A stretch of DNA of 64,000 nt from Patescibacteria group bacterium (lineage in GTDB: Bacteria; Patescibacteriota; Patescibacteriia; UBA9934; GWF2-40-263). The notes under the pieces are model-generated. The model was not told where the DNA came from and did no database searches. It saw nothing but the letters and a program-made list of their open reading frames with translations. Below, piece by piece: positions 19,646 through 63,414 of this stretch. A program made the position numbers and the translations under genes. The stretch covers positions 289,181 through 353,180 of the forward strand of contig SCUM01000001.1 in the NCBI GenBank assembly GCA_004297215.1. Direction: 5' to 3'. Each line of letters opens with the position of its first letter. Within the stretch, counting starts at the first letter, position 1.

Positions 19646-19861
19646 GTGAAGCAGCCCGTCGCGTTCCATAAGAAAGCCATTTCCGCCGCCAAGACCACCG
19701 CCCAATTGACCCTCGTCGTGGGGGTCGCCGTCCCGGTCATCGCCGCGGCCGGCAGCCTCCTCGCCGCCGACCTTGCCTTCCACCACGCAAGCAAGGCGAT
19801 CAAGCGCCGACTCGCGGAGCGCCACAACGCCAGGCTCGACCGCCGCAGCATCCGCGGCTGA
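19646..19861 (+). CDS. Small hypothetical protein with one predicted TM helix (71 aa)
   Basis: GTG start preceded by AGGAGGA. Hydrophobic core LTLVVGVAVPVIAAAGSLLAA. Confidence 0.35.
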   Translation: MKQPVAFHKKAISAAKTTAQLTLVVGVAVPVIAAAGSLLAADLAFHHASKAIKRRLAERHNARLDRRSIRG

Positions 19862-19979
19862 CCTTCCGCCGCAGCCCCATCAGGAACGAGCCCCTTCGGC
19901 GCGGATGCGCCAGGGCGACCCCGACGAACGGTCGGGGTCATTTTTTACTAAACCCAGCCAAATTATTGCAAACCATCCC

Positions 19980-20008
19980 TTGACAAAACCTCAAAAATAT
20001 GGTATAAA
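19980..20008 (+). promoter_or_regulatory. Strong sigma70-type promoter TTGACA-N17-TATAAA (locus A), near-identical to the promoter at 57801
   Basis: -35 at 19980-19985 and -10 at 20003-20008. The 36-nt block is about 85% identical to 57801-57829. Confidence 0.65.
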
Positions 20009-20039
20009 TATCCACGTGAAGTGATCGTTCCTTCCAAGC

Positions 20040-20239
20040 GGAGTTCGAAGACCGCTACAACCTTAAGGGGGAGAGTCTAAAGAATGCCCGTGGCTGTTGT
20101 TGTCGTGAGTCCCCCTCACACACGACGGCAGCCACGGGCCTTTTTCGTAAAAGGCTCTAACGCGAACCCGCCGACGTCGTCGGCGGTGAAAACAACGTCA
20201 GAAAAACAGGCCGGGTCCCTTGACCCGGCATTGAGGTGA
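20040..20239 (+). promoter_or_regulatory. Conserved 5' leader (locus A): GGAGTTCGAAG motif, SD, ATG micro-ORF (MPVAVVVVSPPH..., 51 codons, 20084-20239), intrinsic terminator (hairpin GCCCGTGGCTG...CAGCCACGGGC plus CTTTTT, 20086-20145)
   Basis: Read directly from the sequence. The architecture parallels the leader at 57860-58102. Confidence 0.5.
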
Positions 20240-20242
20240 TTC

Positions 20243-21547
20243 TTGAAGAACCTGATCCTGATCGCGTCCATGCTTGCCTTCGCTGCCTGCGAGGGACGAA
20301 CGATTGAGACCCCGGCGACGACCGTCAACGCCACCTGCCCGGCCCTGCCGGAGCAGAACGACGACGCGCTCCTCGCCTGTCTCGAGACCATTAGCGAGAT
20401 GACGACCGCTGCGCAGGACGAGGAAAGCCTCGTCGCCTGCCTCGGGGACCTCGAGGCGGCGCTTGACCTCTGCGAAGAGGCTCCCGCGCCCGTCACGGTC
20501 GACGTGATCACGTGCCAGGCCAACAGCGCGGTCGTCGCGAGCGCAACCGATTGCCCTCGCGTCAACCTCGTCTGCGCGCCAGGCACCACGCCGTTTTCGA
20601 GTCCCGACACCGGCGAGTTCCGCTGCGATGAGCAGCATCTCACCATCGACATCGGGAACGGGACGCCGCAAGGCGACCTGGTGCTCCCTGGGACCGGCGT
20701 GGCCGACGTGGCGCACTTCCGCGTGACCAACCTCGGAACGGCGCCGGCTCCGCTCACGGGCGTCAAGCTCGAGAACGTAGCCCAGCAGCCGCTCGAGTCC
20801 GTCTACGTCGTCGACGTCATCCGTAACGGCGTCGGGACCTACGGGGTCTGCACCGGACGGATCGACCTGAATGACGGGAACGGCTGCCTGCGACCGCTCA
20901 CCGCGGTGACGGTCGGCACCAATGAGTCGGTCGACGTGGTGGTGCGGGTGGAGACGCCTGCAGCCGGCACGTGGCCCAACAACGACCGGTACGTGCAGAT
21001 GCGTCTCGTATCCGGCGAGCGTTCGGCCTACGGCAACTGGTTCCTGCTTGCAAACAGCAGGCTCACCGTGAGCAAGGCCAGCGGTTCCCCCTCGGGCGGC
21101 GCCGTTCCCGGGCTCATCGAAGTCGCGCAGATGAACTGGGCAGCGAACGCCCGCGGTGATATCTTCGGCCAACGCATGACGTTCGAGGTGGAAGCGACGG
21201 ACAACGCCGGCAGCGGCTGGATCGACGGCCTGATGAACCCTGCCAAGTGGCAGGTGTTCGACCGCGACGACTCTTCGGAGATGCTCGATACAAACGCCGG
21301 CTGGTCCTTCCAGAGCACGGTCGACGGGCTGGTCATCGCGTCGCTGGACTTCTACCAGAACGGCTCATTGGTCGTCGAACAAGGCAATACGAGGATGTTC
21401 GTCGTAAAAACGGATACGACGGGCGCCGGCGCGAACGACACGTTCAGGCTGACGCTCGTGGACGTCCAGTGGACCGACGGACATGTTTGGTCCGACGGCT
21501 TCTACGTGAACAACCTGCCGGTCGAGTTCGGACGGATCGACTTCTGA
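20243..21547 (+). CDS. Secreted lipoprotein, paralog 1 of a Cys-rich lipoprotein family (434 aa)
   Basis: TTG start with a GAGGTGA SD. Lipobox LAFAAC followed by EGR. Shares the N-terminal pattern and a C-terminal W-x-DG motif with the ORFs at 22232 and 60250. Confidence 0.65.
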   Translation: MKNLILIASMLAFAACEGRTIETPATTVNATCPALPEQNDDALLACLETISEMTTAAQDEESLVACLGDLEAALDLCEEAPAPVTVDVITCQANSAVVASATDCPRVNLVCAPGTTPFSSPDTGEFRCDEQHLTIDIGNGTPQGDLVLPGTGVADVAHFRVTNLGTAPAPLTGVKLENVAQQPLESVYVVDVIRNGVGTYGVCTGRIDLNDGNGCLRPLTAVTVGTNESVDVVVRVETPAAGTWPNNDRYVQMRLVSGERSAYGNWFLLANSRLTVSKASGSPSGGAVPGLIEVAQMNWAANARGDIFGQRMTFEVEATDNAGSGWIDGLMNPAKWQVFDRDDSSEMLDTNAGWSFQSTVDGLVIASLDFYQNGSLVVEQGNTRMFVVKTDTTGAGANDTFRLTLVDVQWTDGHVWSDGFYVNNLPVEFGRIDF

Positions 21548-21713
21548 CAACCCTGCGTCCGGGGCGGTGGAATCGAGAGGGTCTCCTCTCTTCCCCGCCT
21601 CGGCGCGAACACGTTCTGAAGATTCTGCGATTGCGGTCATGCGACCTCAGCCGCGGACCTTTCAGGATAGATAACCAGTGCCGGACTTCGAGCCGGCCAG
21701 TATGGAGGACGCC

Positions 21714-22067
21714 ATGACGTGGAAGAAGTTCGAAGGGAACGTGGTCGGGACCAGGGTCGAAGGCGATCCGTCGGTGCCGCCCACCAGGTGGTACAACCAC
21801 CTGTGGCTGCTGATGTTCGGATGGAAGAAGGTCGCCGTGTTCATGGCGATGAACGCTTCCGCCCCCGCCCGCGTGGGCTTCCGTCCCTTCAGGGGCGACG
21901 CGATGCTCCGCGAGGAACCGCTCGATCGTGGGACCTTCCGGGTCCGGATCGGCCACGAGGCGTGCACCTTCTTCGTCGTCGGCGACGATGGCAAGGAGAT
22001 CCCGCTGGAGCTCCTGAAGGTAACGACCCGGGACGATCCGGGCTACGACAAAGTCCCGCTCCTCTGA
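21714..22067 (+). CDS. Hypothetical protein (117 aa)
   Basis: GGAGGA-N4-ATG start and strong GC3 bias. The ORF also opens at GTG 21678. Confidence 0.4.
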   Translation: MTWKKFEGNVVGTRVEGDPSVPPTRWYNHLWLLMFGWKKVAVFMAMNASAPARVGFRPFRGDAMLREEPLDRGTFRVRIGHEACTFFVVGDDGKEIPLELLKVTTRDDPGYDKVPLL

Positions 22068-44179: not shown

Positions 44180-47100
44180 CTATTGGCCCGAAGCGGCAGG
44201 GGCAGATCGGACGAACGCGTTCAGGGCCGCCCTCGTAAGCGGTCCGACCAGGCCGATGGGCGGGATGTTCTTCAATGCCTGAAACGCGGCGACGGCGCGC
44301 TGGGTGATCGGTCCATAGGTGCCGGAGGCGGACACGTCTTCTGGGAAATGCTTGAGGCACCGAAGGATCTCCTGCAGTCGTACGACCGCGTCACCGACGT
44401 TCCCAGGGCCGAGGTTCGAGGTGAACGGCGAGGACAGGACGCAGGCGGAGGCCACCGGCTCGGGGGCCCTAGCCTCGACGCACATGGCCGGATCGTCCTT
44501 CGCGTTGATCGTGCGGATGCTCCCCGCGGCCTCGTGGGTGTCGTTCCAGACCACCCGATCGAGCTTCGGCTCCCCGCGCAAGGACACCTGGAGCGCCAGG
44601 CGGTGGTGCCAGGCGGCGTCCAGTTCGAGCAGTTCGAACGTGACGGCGGAACAGTCGCGTGTATCGACTAGGACGCGGACGTCGTTGTAGTCGAAATCCC
44701 GTCCGGAATCCTCGAACCCGACGATGGTCCTGCCGTCGGCGGCGGGCGTCACGCGGACGTACGGCGTCCCCATATGCCGTTCGGTCCCGTCCGGGTTCAC
44801 GATGTACAGGTCGTACCCGACCTCGTCGCACGCGACCTCGCACGGCGCTGGCAGAGCGTCCGCAGCGGGGACGGACGGAGGAGGCTCGACGTCGGTCGTG
44901 GGCGGAAGCGGCGGGAGGACGCCGGCAGGATCGACGTAGGGTTCTTCCACGTCCTCGACGATCGGAAGGATCGCCCCGACGACGTACGCGCCGTCCTCGT
45001 TGGCGTCGATGAGCGCGTACTGGCCGATGCCAAGATGCGAATCCGGCCAGATGAGCAGGTCACTCACGAGCGCTCCCGCGTTGGACAAGGCGATGCGCAC
45101 GTTGTGGAGCCACCCGGCGTCCACCGCGAGCACGGTCACCACGATCCTGGTCCAGTCCGAGTAGTCCACCCGGATCACGACGTCGTCGAAGTCGAAGTCC
45201 GATCCCTTGTCCTCGAACCGGATGATGTCCACGGTGTCGCTCACGCGCTCGACGCGCGCGTACCGCGGGTCGGTCATGTGGCGCTCGGTCCCGTCGGGAT
45301 TCACGATGTAGATGTCGTAGGACGCGGCGGAGAAGTCGACGTCCGGCGGGGCGGGTTGCGACGGCACGGGTTCGGTCACGGGGCTCGGCGGCGGAAGTTC
45401 GCTCGTCGTCTCCGGCGCGGACGGTTCCGGGGAGGTCGTCGTCCCGGTGTCGGATCCGGGATTGCTCGGAGGGTTCACGACGATGCTCCCTCCCCCGCTG
45501 CGCCGGGTGATTGAGAAGGAGATGTCCGTGGCGTCCGCAGCGGCATACGTCCCGTCGGCGTCGATGTCCGCATCGATGGTGCAGGTGCCAGCCGCGACGA
45601 ACGTGACGATGCCGGTGGTCGAGCCGATGGTGCACACTCCGGTCGTGGTGCTCGTGTACGTCTTGGTACCGGCTCCAGCGGAAGCGGTGGACGTGATGGT
45701 CGGCTCCGCTTCGGTGATCAGGTAACTCGACTCGTACGAGCCCGCGTCGATGGTGAGCGTGCGGGCGGCGAGGGTCACGCTGAAGGAGATGTCCGTGGCG
45801 TCGGCCGTGTCATAGGTGCCGTCGGCGTCGATGTCCGCATCGATGGTGCAGGTGCCGGCGGACACGAACGTGACGATCCCCGTGGTGGAACCGATGGTGC
45901 ACACGCCGGTCGTGGTGCTCGTGTACGTCTTGGTACCGGCTCCAGCGGAAGCGGTGGACGTGATGGTCGGAGGCGTGTCCGTGAGCTCGTAGCTGGCGAC
46001 GTACGAGCCCGCGTCGATGGTGAGCGTGCGGGCGGCGAGGGTCACGCTGAAGGAGATGTCCGTGGCGTCGGCCGCGTCGTAGGTGCCGTCGGCGTCGATG
46101 TCGGCGTCGATGGTGCAGGTGCCGGCCGCGACGAAGGTGACGATACCTGTGGTGGAACCGATGGTGCAGACGCCGGTCGTGGTGCTCGTGTAGCTCTTCG
46201 TCCCCGTTCCGGCGGAGGCGGTCGACGTGATGGTGGGCGGGGTGTCCGTGAGCGAATAGCTGGAGACGTACGAGCCTGCGTCGATCGTGAGCGTGCGGGC
46301 GGCCAAGGTGACCGAGAACGAAATGTCCGTCGCGTCGGCCGTGTCATAGGTGCCGTCGGCGTCGATGTCGGCGTCGATGGTGCAGGTGCCGGCCGCGACG
46401 AAGGTGACGATGCCGGTCGTTGATCCGATTGTACAGACGCCTGTGGTCGTGCTCGTGTACGTCTTCGTTCCCGTCCCGGCGGAGGCGGTCGACGTGATGG
46501 TCGGGGGCGTGTCCGTCATGGAGTAACTGGCCACGTACGAGCCCGCGTCGATGGTGAGAGTGCGGGCGGCCAGCGTCACCGAGAACGAGATGTCCGTCGC
46601 GTCGGCCGTGTCATAGGTGCCGTCGCTCGCGATGTCGGCATCGATCGTGCAGGTGCCGGCCGCGACGAAGGTGACGATGCCGGTGGTCGAGCCGATGGTG
46701 CACACGCCAGTCGTGGTACTCGTGTACGTCTTGGTGCCGGCTCCAGCGGAAGCGGTGGACGTAATCGTCGGCGGCGTGTCCGTGAGCGTGTAGCTCGCGA
46801 CGTACGAGCCGGCGTCGATGGTGAGGGTACGGGACGCCAGGCTCGTGGTGAAGTTCAGGATGGATCCTTCGAACGCGGTCGTGCAAGAGACGTTCGGATA
46901 CGTGCCGGTGAGCGCGCTCGTGCACGCGCGGATCTTGAAATAATAGGTGATCCCGGAGGTGAGGCCGGTCACGGCATAGCTGAACGGCTGGGTGGACGAC
47001 CCGCCGGCCGTGAGCGCGGCCGTGCCGGTGCCGTCGTCGACGGTGACGGTCGTCGTCCCGGAAGAAAGATCCGAGACGGTGCCGTACACGAACTGGATGC

Positions 47101-57714: not shown

Positions 57715-57800
57715 AATGGCGCAAGTATATCATAGGCAAGGTTCCTTGACTCGGTTTCTTTAAACGCAGCTTAGATTAGCCAATATTTTGACGTTTCCCC

Positions 57801-57829
57801 TTGACAAAACCCCTAAAATATGATATAAA
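57801..57829 (+). promoter_or_regulatory. Strong sigma70-type promoter TTGACA-N17-TATAAA (locus B), near-identical to the promoter at 19980
   Basis: -35 at 57801-57806 and -10 at 57824-57829. Confidence 0.65.
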
Positions 57830-57859
57830 TCTTCTCGTACTCTGATCCTTGGATAACTG

Positions 57860-58102
57860 GCGGAAACGCCATTGGGGAGTTCGAAGGCCCTAAATATCCA
57901 TGAATTCAGAGGAGTGAGTATCTCAATGACAGGCGAACAGCCGGTTGTTGGCGTACTTCACGTACTCCCGCAACCGGTTGTTTGTTTTCTTGCCCACCGA
58001 AGCTCATCAGAGCGAAGGAGGGTTGTACCCGGAAATCTGGAGGAGAGAGTCCCCCGCCGAAGCCCGCAAGGGCGACAGTGGGTCGGATGCCTAATGCCAT
58101 GA
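57860..58102 (+). promoter_or_regulatory. Conserved 5' leader (locus B): GGAGTTCGAAG motif, SD AGAGGAG, ATG micro-ORF (MTGEQPVVGVLHVLPQPVV..., 57926-58102), intrinsic terminator (GCCGGTTG...CAACCGGTTG plus TTTGTTTTCTT, about 57940-57991)
   Basis: Read directly from the sequence. Homologous to the locus A leader at 20040-20239. Confidence 0.5.
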
Positions 58103-58230
58103 CTCGGTCTTGTACTGACTCATGTCATACCCCTGGCATCCATGGGCCACACCAGTCGCAAGGCAGGTCACTGGCCCCCGACCCTCCAGATTCCCGGGTG
58201 CAACTTCAACCAGCACCCGTAGGAGGCAGC

Positions 58231-60024: not shown

Positions 60025-60249
60025 CCGCCAAAGACACGCATCGTGGCCCCTGCACCCTTCCGACGCCTGTCGGATCGGTGCGGGGCCACGAAAGAAAACT
60101 CCGCCATTCATCCTTGCCTTGGTACGCGCCTTCTGGCACGGACTAAGGTGAGGACGACGGGCGGAGTTTTCGTTTGTCCGACCGTTGACAGACGGCGGAT
60201 TTTTTGATACGCTCGGCACCACTCTTTCACAACTGAAACGAGGAGAAAG

Positions 60250-61980
60250 ATGAGCAAAAGCATCCTGTTCCTATTCGCGTTCCTGACACTCACCGGCTGC
60301 GACGGAAGGACGGTGGTCGAGAATACTCAGAAGGTCCGCGAGTGCTACTGCGGCGAGAACGAGATCGTGTGCGACGTCGACCCATGTGACCGAGAGATCG
60401 TCGAGGTCATCCGCACCGCCTGCCTTGATGGCAGCGTCGTCGACGACCCGCGCGATTGTCCTGCGGCCGGTGAAGGCGAAGGAGAGGGAGAAGGCGACAC
60501 TGGACTTTTCGTCACGCTCTCAAGTTCGACGCCCGCAAGTCAGACGGTCCCGCCCGGCGCCGCCTCGGTGGAGTTCATCAAGGTGCGGCTCGCGGAAACG
60601 GATGCGCTGCTCCCCATCAACGATCTCACCTTCCGCGTCGGCGGCGTGGGTGCCGTCTCCAATATCGATTCGGCCACCTTGTACTTGGCAGATTCCTTCG
60701 ATGATCCGGTTATCGACTTGCGCGTCTCCGATCCGCAGCCGATCGATCCGGTGACGCGCGAGGTGTCGTTTCGAGGAGGTTTCGGTCTCGATCCCGGCGA
60801 GACACGGACGTATGCCGTGCGCTTGGATATCGCCGCCGCCGTGAACAGCGGAGACACGGCGCGACTTGAGCTGGTGTCCATCGCATCCGACGGCCAGGAC
60901 GTGTTTGGCGCGTTCCCGATCAGCGGGAACGCGATGACATTCACGGACCATCCGGTCGGGACGGTCCGGTTCGGACGATTCCCGTCCTTCAGCCCGGTCG
61001 TGGGCGAAACGGACGCCGTCGTGGCGCAATTCACCATCCAGGCCATGTCGGAGGGCGCGAACTTGAAAGCGCTGACGCTCAACTGGCCACAAGCGCTCGA
61101 CAACGGTAACAGTTCGATTTGGAACGATGACGTGAGATTGGGTGATTGCTTCGCCTTCTCCAGGTCGCTGGTCTTTTGCGACCTGGATGACCAGCTCCAC
61201 CTCGATCAGGATGAGATGCGGAGCTTCCAGCTCCGAACCGATCTGTTCGTCGAGGCCGGAGAGGTGATGCAGGTTGCCGTCGAAGACCCGACGGACGTGT
61301 TCGCCTTCGGAGACGAATTCGGCTTCCAGATGGCCGTGGACATCTCGGGATACGACGACGCGGATTCGGCGTGCACGGGACCGGGCCGAGACTGTTCCTA
61401 TTCGGTCGTGAGTCCCGGATGCGCATTCCAAGTCCATGACGAGGGAGGGACGTTGTTCCAGACGCAGGCCCTGCCCTCCTTCTTTCCGACCTCCGGCGGC
61501 GAGGCGACCCGTGAGGTCGTCCCTGGACCGAACTCCGCGCTGACGTTTGAGGCATTTGCCCAGAACGCGTGCGATGGAAACGTGACCCTGTTCTGGATCA
61601 GCGATTTCTCCATCCGGGCTACGGATGAGGACGGAACCGGCTGGGTGGAGGATCTGCACGATAACGCGCCTGACATGATCCGGCTCGTAAACCTGACAAC
61701 CGGCACGCAGACGCCAGGCACCACAGTGACATTCGGCCCGACGGTACATCAAGGAACGACGACGCAGTTCGGCTTCGGCTTCGAGTTCGATCCGGCGGAG
61801 TTCATCGAGAGCGGTGTGTTCTATGCGTATGAGCTCATCGTCGACACGACGGGAGCCTCGGTTGGTTCCAACGACAGCATTGAGGTGTCGACCATGTTCC
61901 TGGCGTATTGGAGCGACGGCAACGTGTCGCTTATGACCTCGAACCTTGGGCCGCAAATCGGGACCGTCCTGATTCACTGA
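60250..61980 (+). CDS. Secreted lipoprotein, paralog 3 (576 aa) with a Cys-rich N-terminal region and a GEGEGEGEGD linker
   Basis: GAGGAGAAAG-ATG start. Lipobox LTLTGC followed by DGR. Cys pattern CYCGENEIVCDVDPCD resembles paralog 2. C-terminal YWSDGNV motif. Confidence 0.65.
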   Translation: MSKSILFLFAFLTLTGCDGRTVVENTQKVRECYCGENEIVCDVDPCDREIVEVIRTACLDGSVVDDPRDCPAAGEGEGEGEGDTGLFVTLSSSTPASQTVPPGAASVEFIKVRLAETDALLPINDLTFRVGGVGAVSNIDSATLYLADSFDDPVIDLRVSDPQPIDPVTREVSFRGGFGLDPGETRTYAVRLDIAAAVNSGDTARLELVSIASDGQDVFGAFPISGNAMTFTDHPVGTVRFGRFPSFSPVVGETDAVVAQFTIQAMSEGANLKALTLNWPQALDNGNSSIWNDDVRLGDCFAFSRSLVFCDLDDQLHLDQDEMRSFQLRTDLFVEAGEVMQVAVEDPTDVFAFGDEFGFQMAVDISGYDDADSACTGPGRDCSYSVVSPGCAFQVHDEGGTLFQTQALPSFFPTSGGEATREVVPGPNSALTFEAFAQNACDGNVTLFWISDFSIRATDEDGTGWVEDLHDNAPDMIRLVNLTTGTQTPGTTVTFGPTVHQGTTTQFGFGFEFDPAEFIESGVFYAYELIVDTTGASVGSNDSIEVSTMFLAYWSDGNVSLMTSNLGPQIGTVLIH

Positions 61981-62036: not shown

Positions 62037-62047
62037 ATTCCAAATTT

Positions 62048-62085
62048 CAAAAGGCCCAGGCAGCGATGCCATGGGCCCTTTCTTC
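62048..62085. terminator. Second, bidirectional terminator hairpin
   Basis: AAAA-GGCCCA-GGCAGCGATGCCA-TGGGCC-CTTTCTTC. Confidence 0.5.
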
Positions 62086-62640
62086 ATCAGGCTACAGCCT
62101 GATGGACTCTCTCCTCTTCCTCCAAACCCGCCATTGCCCTTCGAGAGCGCCGGTGGGTCTTTTTACTCTCTCCCCTTCGTTTCGGGGATATGCCCCTAAC
62201 GGTTCCCTGGAGTTCCAGAGGAACCCAGAAGGCTATCCCTTTCTCCCAAATCTGTCAATCCCTCCATCCCCTTCGGCCCCTTCTCCCCCTTAAATCCCTT
62301 ATAACCCTTCCGTTTCCCTGTCATTCCCCCTTGACACCCCTTAGGAAACCTGATAGCTTGGTCGGTCGTCGAAGCAGGCGTGCAGGCGACCGCCAACCTG
62401 TCGAAAGATGGCGTCTACGCAGGACAAAAAGATGGATCGAGTCAAATCGCAACGGGCGCAAAGCGCGCACAGGCCTGTCCCGTACCCACGGGAACCCCCA
62501 TTGCCGACGGGCCGCAGGTGCCCCACGCCCATCTCCTGTCCGGGAGAAGGCGGCTGCTGAAGACTCCGTTCATCGACGACGACTGCGACGACGCACGACA
62601 CGCCCTCCACAGCTCATCAGAGCGACGGAGGGTCTTTTAT

Positions 62641-63414
62641 TTACACCTTCAGGACGGGGTATTCCGATGCCCCGGCCCAGGCCAGGTCGAACATGATGCG
62701 GATGGCGTCGGCGATCTCCTTGCTCACGATGACGATGGAAAGCGGCGCGGACTTGAAATTCACCAGGAACACGTGGCTGCCGCGTACGGTGATCTCGGCG
62801 TGAAGCGGGAATTTCTCCGGCGGGAGGTAGCGCACTTCCCCGTTCTTCACGCGCGGCAGGCGTTCCGCCGCGCCGGGAGACGTCACCAGCAGGGCGCGAT
62901 GGAACGCTCCCTGGGCCTCCACTTCCGCGACATGTTCCGGTCGCGTCTTCATGATCGTCGGGTTGGCTTCCACGTCGTCGAGCGGGACGATCTGCACGTA
63001 CTCGCCCTTGAGCGACAGGAACACCTCGCGCATGGTCGCCTTCCCTTCCACTCCTTCGAGATAGCGGATCTGCGGCTTGGCCCCCTCCACGTTGAACAGG
63101 CCGAGCAGCGTAGGCAGCACCTTCTCGAACTCGAGCTCCTTCTCCTCGATCTCCCGGCGCTCCATGCGCAGGATGCTGCGCAGGCGATCCGGCGATTCGG
63201 GGACGAAAAAGCGCTTCTTGCCGCGCACGAAGGTGCTCATGAGGCCTCGCCCCGCGAGCGATTCGATCATCACGTACGTGGTGGCGCGGTTCACCTTGGA
63301 CTTGTGCGCGATGTCCTGCACCGGCGCGGGCCCGAGCTCGAGGGACGCGGCATAGACCGCGGCCTCCTTCTCCGACAGGCCAAGGTGCATCAGTTCGCGG
63401 AGGACTTCGTCCAT
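62641..63414 (-). CDS. TrmB-family transcriptional regulator
   Basis: N-terminal wHTH LRELMHLGLSEKEAAVYAASLELGPAPVQDIAHKSKVNRATTYVMIESL (TrmB N-domain signature), followed by a coiled coil and a C-terminal domain; 257 aa. Confidence 0.75.
   Translation of the reverse strand: MDEVLRELMHLGLSEKEAAVYAASLELGPAPVQDIAHKSKVNRATTYVMIESLAGRGLMSTFVRGKKRFFVPESPDRLRSILRMERREIEEKELEFEKVLPTLLGLFNVEGAKPQIRYLEGVEGKATMREVFLSLKGEYVQIVPLDDVEANPTIMKTRPEHVAEVEAQGAFHRALLVTSPGAAERLPRVKNGEVRYLPPEKFPLHAEITVRGSHVFLVNFKSAPLSIVIVSKEIADAIRIMFDLAWAGASEYPVLKV

What the first reader, a model, noticed from the sequence alone, without database searches (positions are those of the whole stretch)
19975..20245. Locus A: strong promoter, conserved leader, and Val-rich micro-ORF embedded in an intrinsic terminator, driving a lipoprotein gene
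A textbook TTGACA-N17-TATAAA promoter is followed by about 75 nt containing GGAGTTCGAAGACCGC (a T-arm-like hairpin). A strong SD (AAGGGGGAGAG) then leads to an ATG that opens a 51-codon ORF, MPVAVVVVSPPH.... The first codons of that ORF form the 5' arm of a canonical rho-independent terminator (GCCCGTGGCTG..CAGCCACGGGC-CTTTTT). Two further perfect palindromes follow, and then the TTG start of lipoprotein paralog 1. This is the layout of a leader-peptide transcription attenuator or riboregulator. Nearly the same element recurs 38 kb away (next finding), which argues that it is functional rather than chance.
Basis: seen in the sequence. Interest (0 to 1): 0.8.

Follow-up and report, generated by a model that had tools for sequence, protein, structure and literature searches.

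The report
Conserved structured leader RNA in Uhrbacteria
The flagged stretch is one copy of a previously undescribed, conserved structured RNA of about 135 nt in Uhrbacteria (candidate phyla radiation bacteria): it runs from a strong promoter to a terminator and forms the leader of the genes downstream, and the small Val-rich reading frame inside it is most likely a chance ORF.

Summary
Its coding interpretation does not hold.

- **What it is.** The window comes from a Patescibacteria/Uhrbacteria MAG. Region 20013-20148 and its paralog at 57834-57987 belong to an RNA family with 16 distinct clear members plus 2 weak distant ones. No Rfam family matches.
- **Shared anatomy:**
  - an inverted repeat centred near -61;
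  - a TTGACA-N14-TGnTA promoter;
  - a 5-bp hairpin with a T-loop-like loop (AGUUCGAAGR);
  - a long hairpin plus U tract whose apical loop carries a CU-rich complement of the box.
- **Structure.** The stems covary strongly: 14 of 18 pairs show double changes.
- **Micro-ORF.** A start codon at SD spacing follows the box in only 5 of 16 members, about the chance rate. ORF lengths run from 6 to 97 aa, and close relatives are frame-shifted.
- **Context.** The element always precedes same-strand genes, sometimes only 14-16 nt after the U tract. It therefore acts as a leader with an internal terminator.
- **Best reading.** A factor-controlled transcription attenuator with an unknown signal. The main rival is a small RNA acting in trans.
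- **Lipoprotein link.** This link is not conserved.

The parts
19917..19945 (+). Intrinsic terminator of the upstream 71-aa gene (GACCCCGAC/GTCGGGGTC followed by ATTTTTT). It insulates locus A from upstream transcription.
19946..19959 (.). Operator-like inverted repeat (TACTAAACCCAGCC; family consensus GGCTRA-NN-TYAGCC), about 20 nt upstream of the -35 hexamer. The left half is degenerate in this copy.
   Evidence: present at the same distance in all 16 family promoters and absent from the other promoters of the window. Not enriched in the window itself.
19980..20009 (+). Promoter: -35 TTGACA, 14 nt, then TGGTATAAAT (extended -10).
20013..20148 (+). Domain-1 structured RNA (copy A), from about the transcription start to the end of the U tract.
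   Evidence: covariance model R1, 64.5 bits, E = 1.3e-14; fold z = -3.85; no Rfam match
20037..20056 (+). Hairpin P1b: 5-bp stem AGCGG/CCGCU with the 10-nt loop AGUUCGAAGA, which contains a T-loop-like UUCGA.
   Evidence: stem levels 1-5 are paired in 10-11 of 11 members, with CG/GC/UA/AU exchanges at levels 3-5. See, helix 1.
20067..20076 (+).
   Evidence: invariant G.GAG across the family; all 5 GGRGAGAGW sites of the window lie in the RNA loci
20084..20239 (+). 51-codon micro-ORF (MPVAVVVV...). Judged to be a chance ORF, not a gene.
   Evidence: no Pfam match
20086..20145 (+). Intrinsic terminator: hairpin 20086-20139 with an 18-bp lower stem, then C and UUUUU.
   Evidence: family-wide covariation
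20110..20115 (+). UCCCCC in the apical part of the terminator hairpin, complementary to GGGGGA of the purine box (candidate pseudoknot).
   Evidence: summed box-loop duplex energy of -192 against -138 +/- 9 kcal/mol for shuffled loops. Covariation is not significant.
20168..20229 (+). Two further hairpins in the 5' UTR (20168-20186 and 20210-20229). The second lies just before the SD GAGGUGA of the lipoprotein gene. No homologs were available to test them.
20243..21547 (+). 434-aa lipoprotein gene (TTG start). It has no promoter of its own and no family assignment.
57768..57829 (+). Copy B: operator-like inverted repeat AGCTTAGATTAGCC (57768-57781) and promoter (57801-57829).
57834..57987 (+). 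Domain-1 RNA, copy B, divergent from holB.
   Evidence: 115.6 bits, E = 1.7e-27; z = -5.24
58037..58191 (+). Domain 2: a second conserved structured RNA directly after the copy-B terminator. It opens with CUGGAGGAGAGAGU and closes with CCUCCAGAU.
   Evidence: 13 distinct sequences, and 21 of 35 predicted pairs show compensatory changes. No Rfam match.

Best explanation
**Proposed mechanism**

Locus A is one copy of an Uhrbacteria-specific structured RNA, which I call "domain 1".

1. Transcription starts from a strong extended -10 promoter. An operator-like inverted repeat sits upstream of it.
2. The RNA folds into three parts:
   - a 5' domain carrying a T-loop-like hairpin;
   - a purine (GA) box;
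   - a long G+C-rich hairpin followed by a U tract.
3. The hairpin's CU-rich apical loop can pair with the GA box.
4. RNA polymerase mostly stops at that hairpin and releases an RNA of about 135 nt.
5. The fraction that reads through becomes the mRNA of the genes downstream. Here these are the 434-aa lipoprotein, a 129-aa "WKKF" protein and a second lipoprotein.
6. I propose that read-through is controlled by a factor that recognises the folded leader: a protein, another RNA or a small molecule.

**Shown:** the conserved sequence and helices, the terminator anatomy, and the position as the only promoter-proximal element before same-strand genes.

**Inferred:** that termination really occurs, that it is regulated, and what the signal is.

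The micro-ORF plays no part in this model.
For: **Homology**
- 16 distinct members were found in Uhrbacteria MAGs and metagenomes.
- The covariance model recovers 6 members that were not in its seed, at E = 8.6e-9 to 4.2e-4.
- It rejects 26 loci that matched the search pattern by chance.
- Two distant Uhrbacteria (holB 44-45% identical) keep the operator, promoter, GA box, terminator and domain 2 at the same position next to holB.

**Structure**
- 95% of pair cells are paired, and 14 of 18 pairs show changes on both sides. No shuffle out of 500 reaches this, and slid controls pair in at most 56% of cells.
- A test of the T-loop hairpin anchored on its loop, and so not fitted to the structure, shows covariation at stem levels 3-5.

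**Terminator**
- A G+C-rich stem followed by a U run is present in all members.
- Ordinary genes in this genome use the same kind of terminator.

**Leader position**
- In every context, same-strand ORFs follow the element. The contexts are window A, L026, L020, L015/L016 and the holB-divergent type.
- In L015 and L026 the ORF starts 14-16 nt after the U tract, which leaves no room for a promoter.
- No promoter was found between 20148 and 20243.
- Domain 2 is itself highly conserved and has no promoter of its own. It can only be made by read-through of the domain-1 terminator.

**Gene linkage**
- The WKKF-protein gene follows copy A in the window (21678-22067), but lies in the copy-B cluster in L003 and L010.
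- The two copies therefore serve one related gene set.
Against: - No alternative (antiterminator) pairing is conserved between the 5' region or linker and either terminator arm. The switching mechanism is therefore unknown.
- The box-loop pseudoknot rests on conserved complementarity only. Cognate-versus-non-cognate and flank-covariation tests are not significant (p = 0.1; p = 0.18).
- The downstream genes have no known function, so no ligand can be guessed.
- A third RNA with the same GA boxes is a stand-alone gene with its own terminator and convergent neighbours. GA-box RNAs therefore need not act in cis.
- There are no expression data.
Confidence: 0.5

Rival explanations
1. Domain 1 is mainly a trans-acting small RNA gene (promoter to terminator, about 135-240 nt). 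The GA box and the CU-rich loop would be its functional surfaces, for example as a protein-binding or decoy site or as a seed for pairing with Shine-Dalgarno-like sequences. Read-through into the downstream genes would be incidental.
For: - The unit has a consensus promoter and a strong terminator, which together define a discrete short transcript.
- A third conserved RNA (window 62224->62040, minus strand) carries 2-3 copies of the same GA box plus an ACUCC loop. It has its own promoter and terminator and no same-strand gene after it.
- All 5 GA-box sites in the window lie in these RNA loci.
- No antiterminator was found.
- From my own knowledge: (AG)n tracts together with a 3' U tail are what Gram-positive-type Hfq binds. 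This was not tested here.
Against: - In all 5-6 independent contexts the next gene is on the same strand. Under random orientation this would happen about 3% of the time.
- In L015 and L026 that gene starts 14-16 nt after the U tract, so it depends on the RNA's promoter.
- Domain 2 also depends on read-through.
Confidence: 0.3
2. A ribosome translating the Val-rich 51-codon micro-ORF (20084-20239) would occupy the 5' arm of the terminator and control termination according to the supply of charged tRNA-Val.
For: - In the window, both copies have an ATG 6-7 nt after a GGAG-containing purine run. Both ORFs read through GUUGUUG in the 5' arm of the terminator (VAVVVV in copy A, PVVGVL in copy B).
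Against: - A start codon at SD spacing is present in only 5 of 16 members, which is about the chance rate. There is none in L003, L011, L042, L013, L039, L016 or L020.
- The ATG of copy B is missing in its ortholog.
- Stop positions and ORF lengths are not conserved.
- Indels shift the reading frame between L010 and L033, and between copy B and L003.
- The Val codons are the G/U-rich 5' arm of the stem. That arm is conserved at the nucleotide level, with no synonymous variation.
- No 2:3 antiterminator pairing exists.
- No protein family matches the ORF.
Confidence: 0.03
3. The element is a constitutive 5' UTR module with no sensing function. It could be a stabilising or processing structure, or a fixed "dimmer" terminator that lowers expression from a very strong promoter. 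All regulation would come from the upstream operator-like site.
For: - A conserved inverted repeat centred near -61 is present at all 16 family promoters. It suggests control at the level of initiation.
- No alternative pairing was found.
Against: - Conservation is extensive: the T-loop hairpin, the GA box and the complementary loop persist across species whose holB proteins are only 44-66% identical.
- That is more than a simple dimmer or stabiliser would seem to need.
Confidence: 0.15

Closest known systems
Riboswitch-type and protein-dependent transcription attenuators (structured 5' leaders ending in an intrinsic terminator; "orphan riboswitch candidates")
   Same: - A strong promoter.
- A conserved, covarying structured leader.
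- A canonical hairpin plus U tract lying before same-strand genes that have no promoter of their own.
- Several copies per genome, in front of different genes.
   Different: - No match to any of the 4227 Rfam families.
- No conserved terminator/antiterminator alternative was found.
- The terminator's own apical loop seems to be part of the conserved fold.
- The downstream genes are lineage-specific envelope proteins and small acidic proteins, not metabolic genes.
Leader-peptide attenuators (trp, his and ilv/leu operons of Proteobacteria; own knowledge)
   Same: - A short ORF overlaps the 5' arm of a terminator in a leader.
- There is a run of Val codons, as in ilv leaders.
   Different: - The ORF, its start codon, its frame and its length are not conserved in the family.
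- There is no alternative 2:3 hairpin.
- The "SD" is a conserved structural or recognition box that also occurs in non-coding contexts.
tRNA T-arm and T-loop motifs in structured RNAs (tRNA, T-box stem I, RNase P; own knowledge)
   Same: - The loop AGUUCGAAGR contains the T-loop consensus U-U-C-R-A, on a short G-C-rich stem.
   Different: - The loop has 10 nt rather than 7, and there is no tRNA-like context.
- ARAGORN and the Rfam tRNA, tmRNA, T-box and RNase P models do not match.
- The hairpin is degenerate in distant family members.
Small RNAs with repeated purine motifs or C/U-rich loops (CsrB/RsmZ-type sponges; RsaE/RoxS-type C-rich seeds; (AG)n Hfq-binding tracts in Gram-positives; own knowledge)
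   Same: - GA-rich boxes, repeated 2-3 times in the third RNA.
- CU-rich hairpin loops.
- A terminator with a U tail.
   Different: - No partner protein has been identified.
- The motif is GGGGAGAGAGU, not the ANGGA motif in hairpin loops that CsrA recognises.
- The position immediately upstream of dependent genes points to a role in cis.

Membership tests
Leader-peptide transcription attenuator | A short ORF with a start codon and SD that is conserved among homologous leaders | tested here: not met
   a start codon 5-10 nt after the box in 5 of 16 members; the ATG is absent in the ortholog of copy B
Leader-peptide transcription attenuator | A conserved run of regulatory codons in a conserved reading frame | tested here: not met
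   ORF lengths of 6-97 aa and frame shifts between close relatives; GUUGUUG is conserved as the 5' arm of a stem
Leader-peptide transcription attenuator | An alternative antiterminator hairpin that competes with the terminator | tested here: not met
   duplex energies of the 5' segment or linker against either terminator arm are no better than for shuffled sequences
Intrinsic (rho-independent) terminator | A G+C-rich hairpin immediately followed by a U run | tested here: met
   present in all 16 members and in L050/L051. Termination itself was not measured.
Any Rfam 15 family (including tRNA, tmRNA, T-box, RNase P, SRP, 6S, yybP-ykoY and other riboswitches) | A covariance-model score at or near the family's gathering threshold | tested here: not met
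   gathering threshold; only tRNAs elsewhere in the window; E <= 10: only hairpin-type chance matches far below threshold
Riboswitch (generic) | A conserved, covarying structured domain in a 5' leader | tested here: met
Riboswitch (generic) | Ligand binding that changes the fold and switches the expression platform | not testable with these tools
   needs in-line probing or transcription assays; the gene context gives no clue to a ligand
H-type pseudoknot between the GA box and the terminator loop | Complementarity that is kept through compensatory changes | tested here: inconclusive
   Complementarity is far above that of shuffled loops (0 of 2000 shuffles reach it). Permutation tests for covariation give p = 0.1 and p = 0.18.
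tRNA or tRNA-like element | A cloverleaf or T-arm recognised by tRNA models | tested here: not met
   5 tRNAs elsewhere in the window and none at 19975-20245

The most novel reading that the evidence does not exclude
Domain 1 would be a new class of sensor RNA from candidate-phyla-radiation bacteria. Its ligand- or factor-binding fold would be built from a T-loop hairpin and a pseudoknot with the apical loop of the terminator itself. Together with domain 2 and a third GA-box RNA, it would form a small RNA-based regulatory network. That network, linked to a TrmB-type regulator, would control lineage-specific surface proteins in Uhrbacteria.
Probability: 0.25. Interest if true: 0.75.

Novelty: new variant of a known kind. 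Interest (0 to 1): 0.55.

Why it matters
Almost nothing is known about gene regulation or non-coding RNA in candidate-phyla-radiation bacteria, which cannot be grown alone. This analysis defines three structured RNA families that Rfam 15 does not match and that two full-text literature searches did not turn up:

- domain 1, the subject of this finding;
- domain 2;
- a stand-alone RNA with several GA boxes.

The three share a GA-box motif. In Uhrbacteria they sit together next to holB and a TrmB-family regulator gene. Domain 1 promoters also share an operator-like site.

These RNAs precede lipoproteins, secreted proteins and small acidic proteins of unknown function. Such proteins are the kind expected to mediate contact with the host or the environment.

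The family offers a concrete, testable entry point into CPR regulation. It also adds a candidate to the list of orphan leader RNAs.

Tried and rejected
- **Rfam.** Searches at gathering threshold and at E <= 10, on the window and on 14 homologous loci, found nothing relevant.
- **tRNA/tmRNA.** ARAGORN found nothing at the locus.
- **Micro-ORF as a gene.** Rejected on comparative grounds, and it has no Pfam match.
- **Antiterminator search.** I tested the 5' segment and the linker against both terminator arms and found no signal.
- **Pseudoknot covariation.** Two permutation tests were not significant. Only conserved complementarity could be shown.
  - The lipoprotein has one distant homolog among 5.8 billion proteins.
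  - The region upstream of that homolog (L046) lacks the leader.
- **Phage or mobile origin.**
  - Scans of viral contigs gave only chance coding matches for domain 1 and none for domain 2.
  - PHROGs gave no hits.
- **Function of downstream proteins.** Pfam, NCBIfam and PHROGs all gave no hits. My guess that the protein downstream in L026 carries a 3D domain was not confirmed.
- **Literature.** Two full-text searches found nothing on such RNAs in Uhrbacteria or the CPR.
- **Other RNA classes for domain 2 or the whole copy-B RNA.** I considered RNase P (the GGAGGAGAGAGUCC start resembles CR-I), tmRNA, SRP, 6S and the yybP-ykoY GGGGAGUAG motif. None is supported by Rfam scoring.
- **Operator site within the window.** It is not enriched there at 2 mismatches or fewer. 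Its support comes only from conservation across homologs.
Full report
**1. The observation**

Reading 19700-20700, together with the ORF list, confirms each element.
- The -35 hexamer TTGACA lies at 19980-19985. The -10 element TGGTATAAAT lies at 20000-20009, which makes this an extended -10 promoter.
- A hairpin AGCGG[AGUUCGAAGA]CCGCU lies at 20037-20056.
- A purine run GGGGGAGAGU lies at 20067-20076.
- An ATG at 20084 opens a 51-codon ORF.
- A hairpin at 20086-20139 is followed by C and UUUUU.
- Two perfect palindromes lie at 20168-20186 and 20210-20229.
- A TTG at 20243 opens a 434-aa lipoprotein ORF.

The putative transcript folds well beyond shuffled controls (z = -3.85).

The upstream 71-aa gene ends in its own terminator at 19917-19939. 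Locus A is therefore a separate transcription unit.

The second copy is real. The 33-nt promoter pattern occurs twice in the window, against 0 expected. The alignment shows that the copies share four things:
- the promoter;
- a CGU....UGAUC.UU segment;
- the GGAGUUCGAAGRCC hairpin;
- a hairpin plus U tract whose arm sequences differ between the copies.

**2. Where the window comes from, and the homologs**

The lipoprotein is identical to a protein of a Patescibacteria MAG (locus tag EPO34_01615) on an 842-kb contig. It has only one distant relative among 5.8 billion proteins.

I collected homologous loci in four ways.
- A promoter-plus-loop pattern scan of species-representative genomes gave one true hit. 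It is Candidatus Uhrbacteria RIFCSPHIGHO2_01_FULL_63_20 (L003), where the element lies divergent from holB exactly as copy B does in the window.
- I fetched contigs that encode holB homologs of 66-49% identity.
- A looser pattern scan of metagenomes added more loci.
- Together these gave 16 distinct members: winA, winB, L003, L009, L010, L033, L011, L042, L013, L039, L044, L015, L016, L020, L022 and L026.

A covariance model built from 10 of the members used only the T-loop hairpin and the terminator as structure.
- It recovers the 6 members outside its seed at E = 8.6e-9 to 4.2e-4.
- It finds exactly two full copies in the window.
- It gives nothing better than E = 0.003 in 26 loci that had matched the search pattern by chance.

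Two distant Uhrbacteria with about 40% G+C and holB 44-45% identical (L050, L051) still carry most of the arrangement upstream of holB. They keep the operator-like site, the promoter, the GA box, the terminator with a CU-rich loop, and domain 2. Their T-loop hairpin has degenerated.

L026 and L021 come from the same JGI data set as L003. That species therefore also has at least two copies. One is of the holB type. The other sits after clpB and before a gene for a protein with a signal-peptide-like N-terminus.

**3. Anatomy of the family**

From 5' to 3', the members share:
- an inverted repeat GGCTRA-NN-TYAGCC about 20 nt upstream of the -35 hexamer. It is a perfect palindrome in L009 and is centred near -61;
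- a TTGACA-N14-TGRTA promoter;
- a conserved single-stranded 5' segment (CGUnAAAUGAUC);
- a branched 5' domain that contains a 5-bp hairpin with the loop AGUUCGAAGR, which includes the T-loop consensus UUCGA;
- a short linker, often GACAAY;
- a purine box, consensus GGGGAGAGAGU;
- optional inserted hairpins;
- a hairpin of 12-20 bp followed by a U tract.

The apical part of the last hairpin carries a CU-rich stretch on its 5' side (ACUCUC, UCUCUC, GCACUCU, UCCCCC and similar) that is complementary to the box.

**4. Is it a structured RNA?**

Yes.
- On the model-derived alignment, 95% of pair cells are standard pairs.
- 14 of 18 pairs change on both sides.
- No shuffle out of 500 reaches this, and slid registers pair in at most 56% of cells.
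- That alignment is fitted to the model. I therefore also anchored the T-loop hairpin on its invariant loop alone. Stem levels 1-5 are paired in 10-11 of 11 sequences, with GC/CG/UA/AU/GU exchanges at levels 3-5. Pairing falls to background from level 6 onward.
- RNAalifold on a plain MAFFT alignment recovers the terminator, with 8 of 13 pairs compensated.

The box-loop pairing is less certain.
- Summed duplex energy is -192 kcal/mol, against -138 +/- 9 for shuffled loops. No shuffle out of 2000 reaches it.
- 14 of 18 sequences have a perfect 5-nt complement of the box core in the loop.
- Most members share the same core, however. Cognate-versus-non-cognate and flank-covariation tests are not significant (p = 0.1; p = 0.18).
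- I therefore treat the pseudoknot as plausible but unproven.

**5. The micro-ORF**

The comparative data argue against it.
- A start codon 5-10 nt after the box is present only in winA, winB, L033 (all ATG), L010 and L015 (both TTG). That is 5 of 16, against about 25% expected by chance for a 6-nt window.
- Seven members have no candidate start at all.
- ORF lengths run from 6 to 97 aa.
- L010 and L033 are close relatives, yet they are frame-shifted within the loop.
- L003 has CTTCAGCC where winB has ATGACAGG.

The Val codons are simply the G/U-rich 5' arm of the stem (GUUGUUG). A G/U-rich arm tolerates changes in its partner strand, and this explains why the 5' arm is the better conserved of the two.

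The "SD" box also occurs where no ORF follows. It is found at the start of domain 2 and two to three times in a third RNA.

**6. Leader or stand-alone RNA?**

Arguments for a leader:
- In every independent context a same-strand ORF follows the element. In L015 and L026 it starts 14-16 nt after the U tract.
- No promoter of the organism's type lies between 20148 and 20243.
- In the holB-type loci the terminator is followed within 10-45 nt by domain 2. Domain 2 is a separately conserved structured RNA, with 21 of 35 pairs compensated. It includes a neat CUGGAGG/CCUCCAG to CUGAGGG/CCCUCGG exchange in L050. It has no promoter of its own, so read-through must occur.
- The WKKF-protein gene that follows copy A in the window lies in the copy-B cluster in L003 and L010. 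This links the two copies to one gene set.

These points make domain 1 a leader with an internal terminator.

Arguments against a classical riboswitch picture:
- No antiterminator is conserved.
- The downstream proteins have no known function.
- A third GA-box RNA is a stand-alone gene. It lies on the minus strand at 62224->62040 and is conserved in L009, L010 and L020. It has its own promoter and terminator and convergent neighbours.

My estimates are:

| Explanation | Probability |
|---|---|
| Regulated attenuator | 0.5 |
| Primarily trans-acting small RNA | 0.3 |
| Constitutive leader module | 0.15 |
| Leader-peptide model | 0.03 |

**7. The lipoprotein link**

- The three lipoproteins of the window are only distant paralogs.
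- The paralog at 60250 has its own promoter at 60185 with a short plain 5' UTR.
- The sole homolog of the 434-aa protein (L046) has a similar promoter but no domain-1 leader.

The leader is therefore not tied to lipoprotein genes as such.

**8. Comparison with known systems, and novelty**

Nothing in Rfam 15 matches domain 1, domain 2 or the third RNA. Two literature searches found no description of them.

In layout, the element is a transcription-attenuating leader or orphan riboswitch candidate.
- It fails the defining tests for a leader-peptide attenuator.
- It does not match any tRNA-like, T-box, RNase P or tmRNA model.

It is a new family of a known general kind. The finding is solid as an RNA discovery, modest in surprise, and open as to mechanism.

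Noticed in passing
window 58037-58191 (+); also L003 5830-5981, L009 3552-3706, L010 3575-3730, L011 3480-3651, L013 2952-3159, L015 155-324, L016 9802-9968, L022 7180-7330, L033 491-647, L039 3360-3567, L042 3481-3652, L044 2844-3048 (all minus strand): Domain 2 is a second conserved structured RNA of 151-208 nt.
- It opens with CUGGAGGAGAGAGU and closes with CCUCCAGAU, and it lies just after the domain-1 terminator.
- In L015 and L016 a small ORF sits between the two domains.
- 13 distinct sequences were found, and 21 of 35 predicted pairs show compensatory changes.
- There is no Rfam match.
- Its closing CCUCC could also pair with the SD of the ORF that follows. That idea was not tested.
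   Followed up: partly
window 62040-62224 (-), promoter TTGACA at 62258 (-); L009 1479-1680 (+), L010 1999-2200 (+), L020 6400-6602 (-): A third conserved small RNA.
- It has its own promoter and terminator, 2-3 GA boxes (GGGGAGAGAGU, GAGGAGAGAGUCC) and a 5' hairpin with an ACUCC loop.
- Its neighbours are convergent, so it is a stand-alone gene.
- It is transcribed divergently from a promoter at 62331 (+). That promoter drives a short ORF ending in a hairpin terminator at 62602-62633.
   Followed up: partly
window 19946-19959 and 57768-57781; the same distance from the -35 hexamer in all 16 family loci: A conserved inverted repeat, GGCTRA-NN-TYAGCC.
- It is centred near -61 of every domain-1 promoter, which is the position typical of an activator site.
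- It is absent from the other same-type promoters of the window (60185, 62331, 62258).
- A TrmB-family regulator gene (62641-63414, minus strand; Pfam E = 6.6e-12) lies at the far end of the cluster here and in L009 and L010. It is an untested candidate regulator.
   Followed up: partly
window 57992-58023, 58052-58083, 62602-62633: Three copies of a hairpin of about 32 nt (GCCCNCC..GCUCAUCAGAGC..GGAGGGU).
- The outer stem covaries (an A.A mismatch in one copy, a U-A pair in another).
- The first copy is an insertion in copy B relative to L003.
- The second copy is the P2 hairpin of domain 2.
- The third copy acts as a terminator-like hairpin after a small ORF.
   Followed up: no
window 60185-60252 (+): The 576-aa lipoprotein paralog has its own TTGACA-N14-TGATAC promoter and a plain 5' UTR of about 30 nt. 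It has neither the leader RNA nor the operator-like site.
   Followed up: yes
window 21678-22067 (+); L003 3364-3744 (-); L010, ORF about 1372 nt downstream of the promoter: A conserved protein of about 125 aa (M.WKKFEG.V.G....GDPS.P...W.N.WW..FGWKK) with no family assignment. It sits after the lipoprotein of locus A in the window, but inside the holB-side RNA cluster in relatives. This points to a rearrangement or duplication of the cluster.
   Followed up: no
L039 3170-3326: A long, near-perfect inverted repeat of about 157 nt lies between domain 2 and the first ORF. It is rich in GGGACAAA repeats. It produced spurious microRNA-precursor matches in Rfam.
   Followed up: no
window 45506-46873: Five tandem copies of a 267-nt unit, 80-89% identical (repeat family D1). 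It is probably a repeat-domain coding region and is unrelated to this finding.
   Followed up: no
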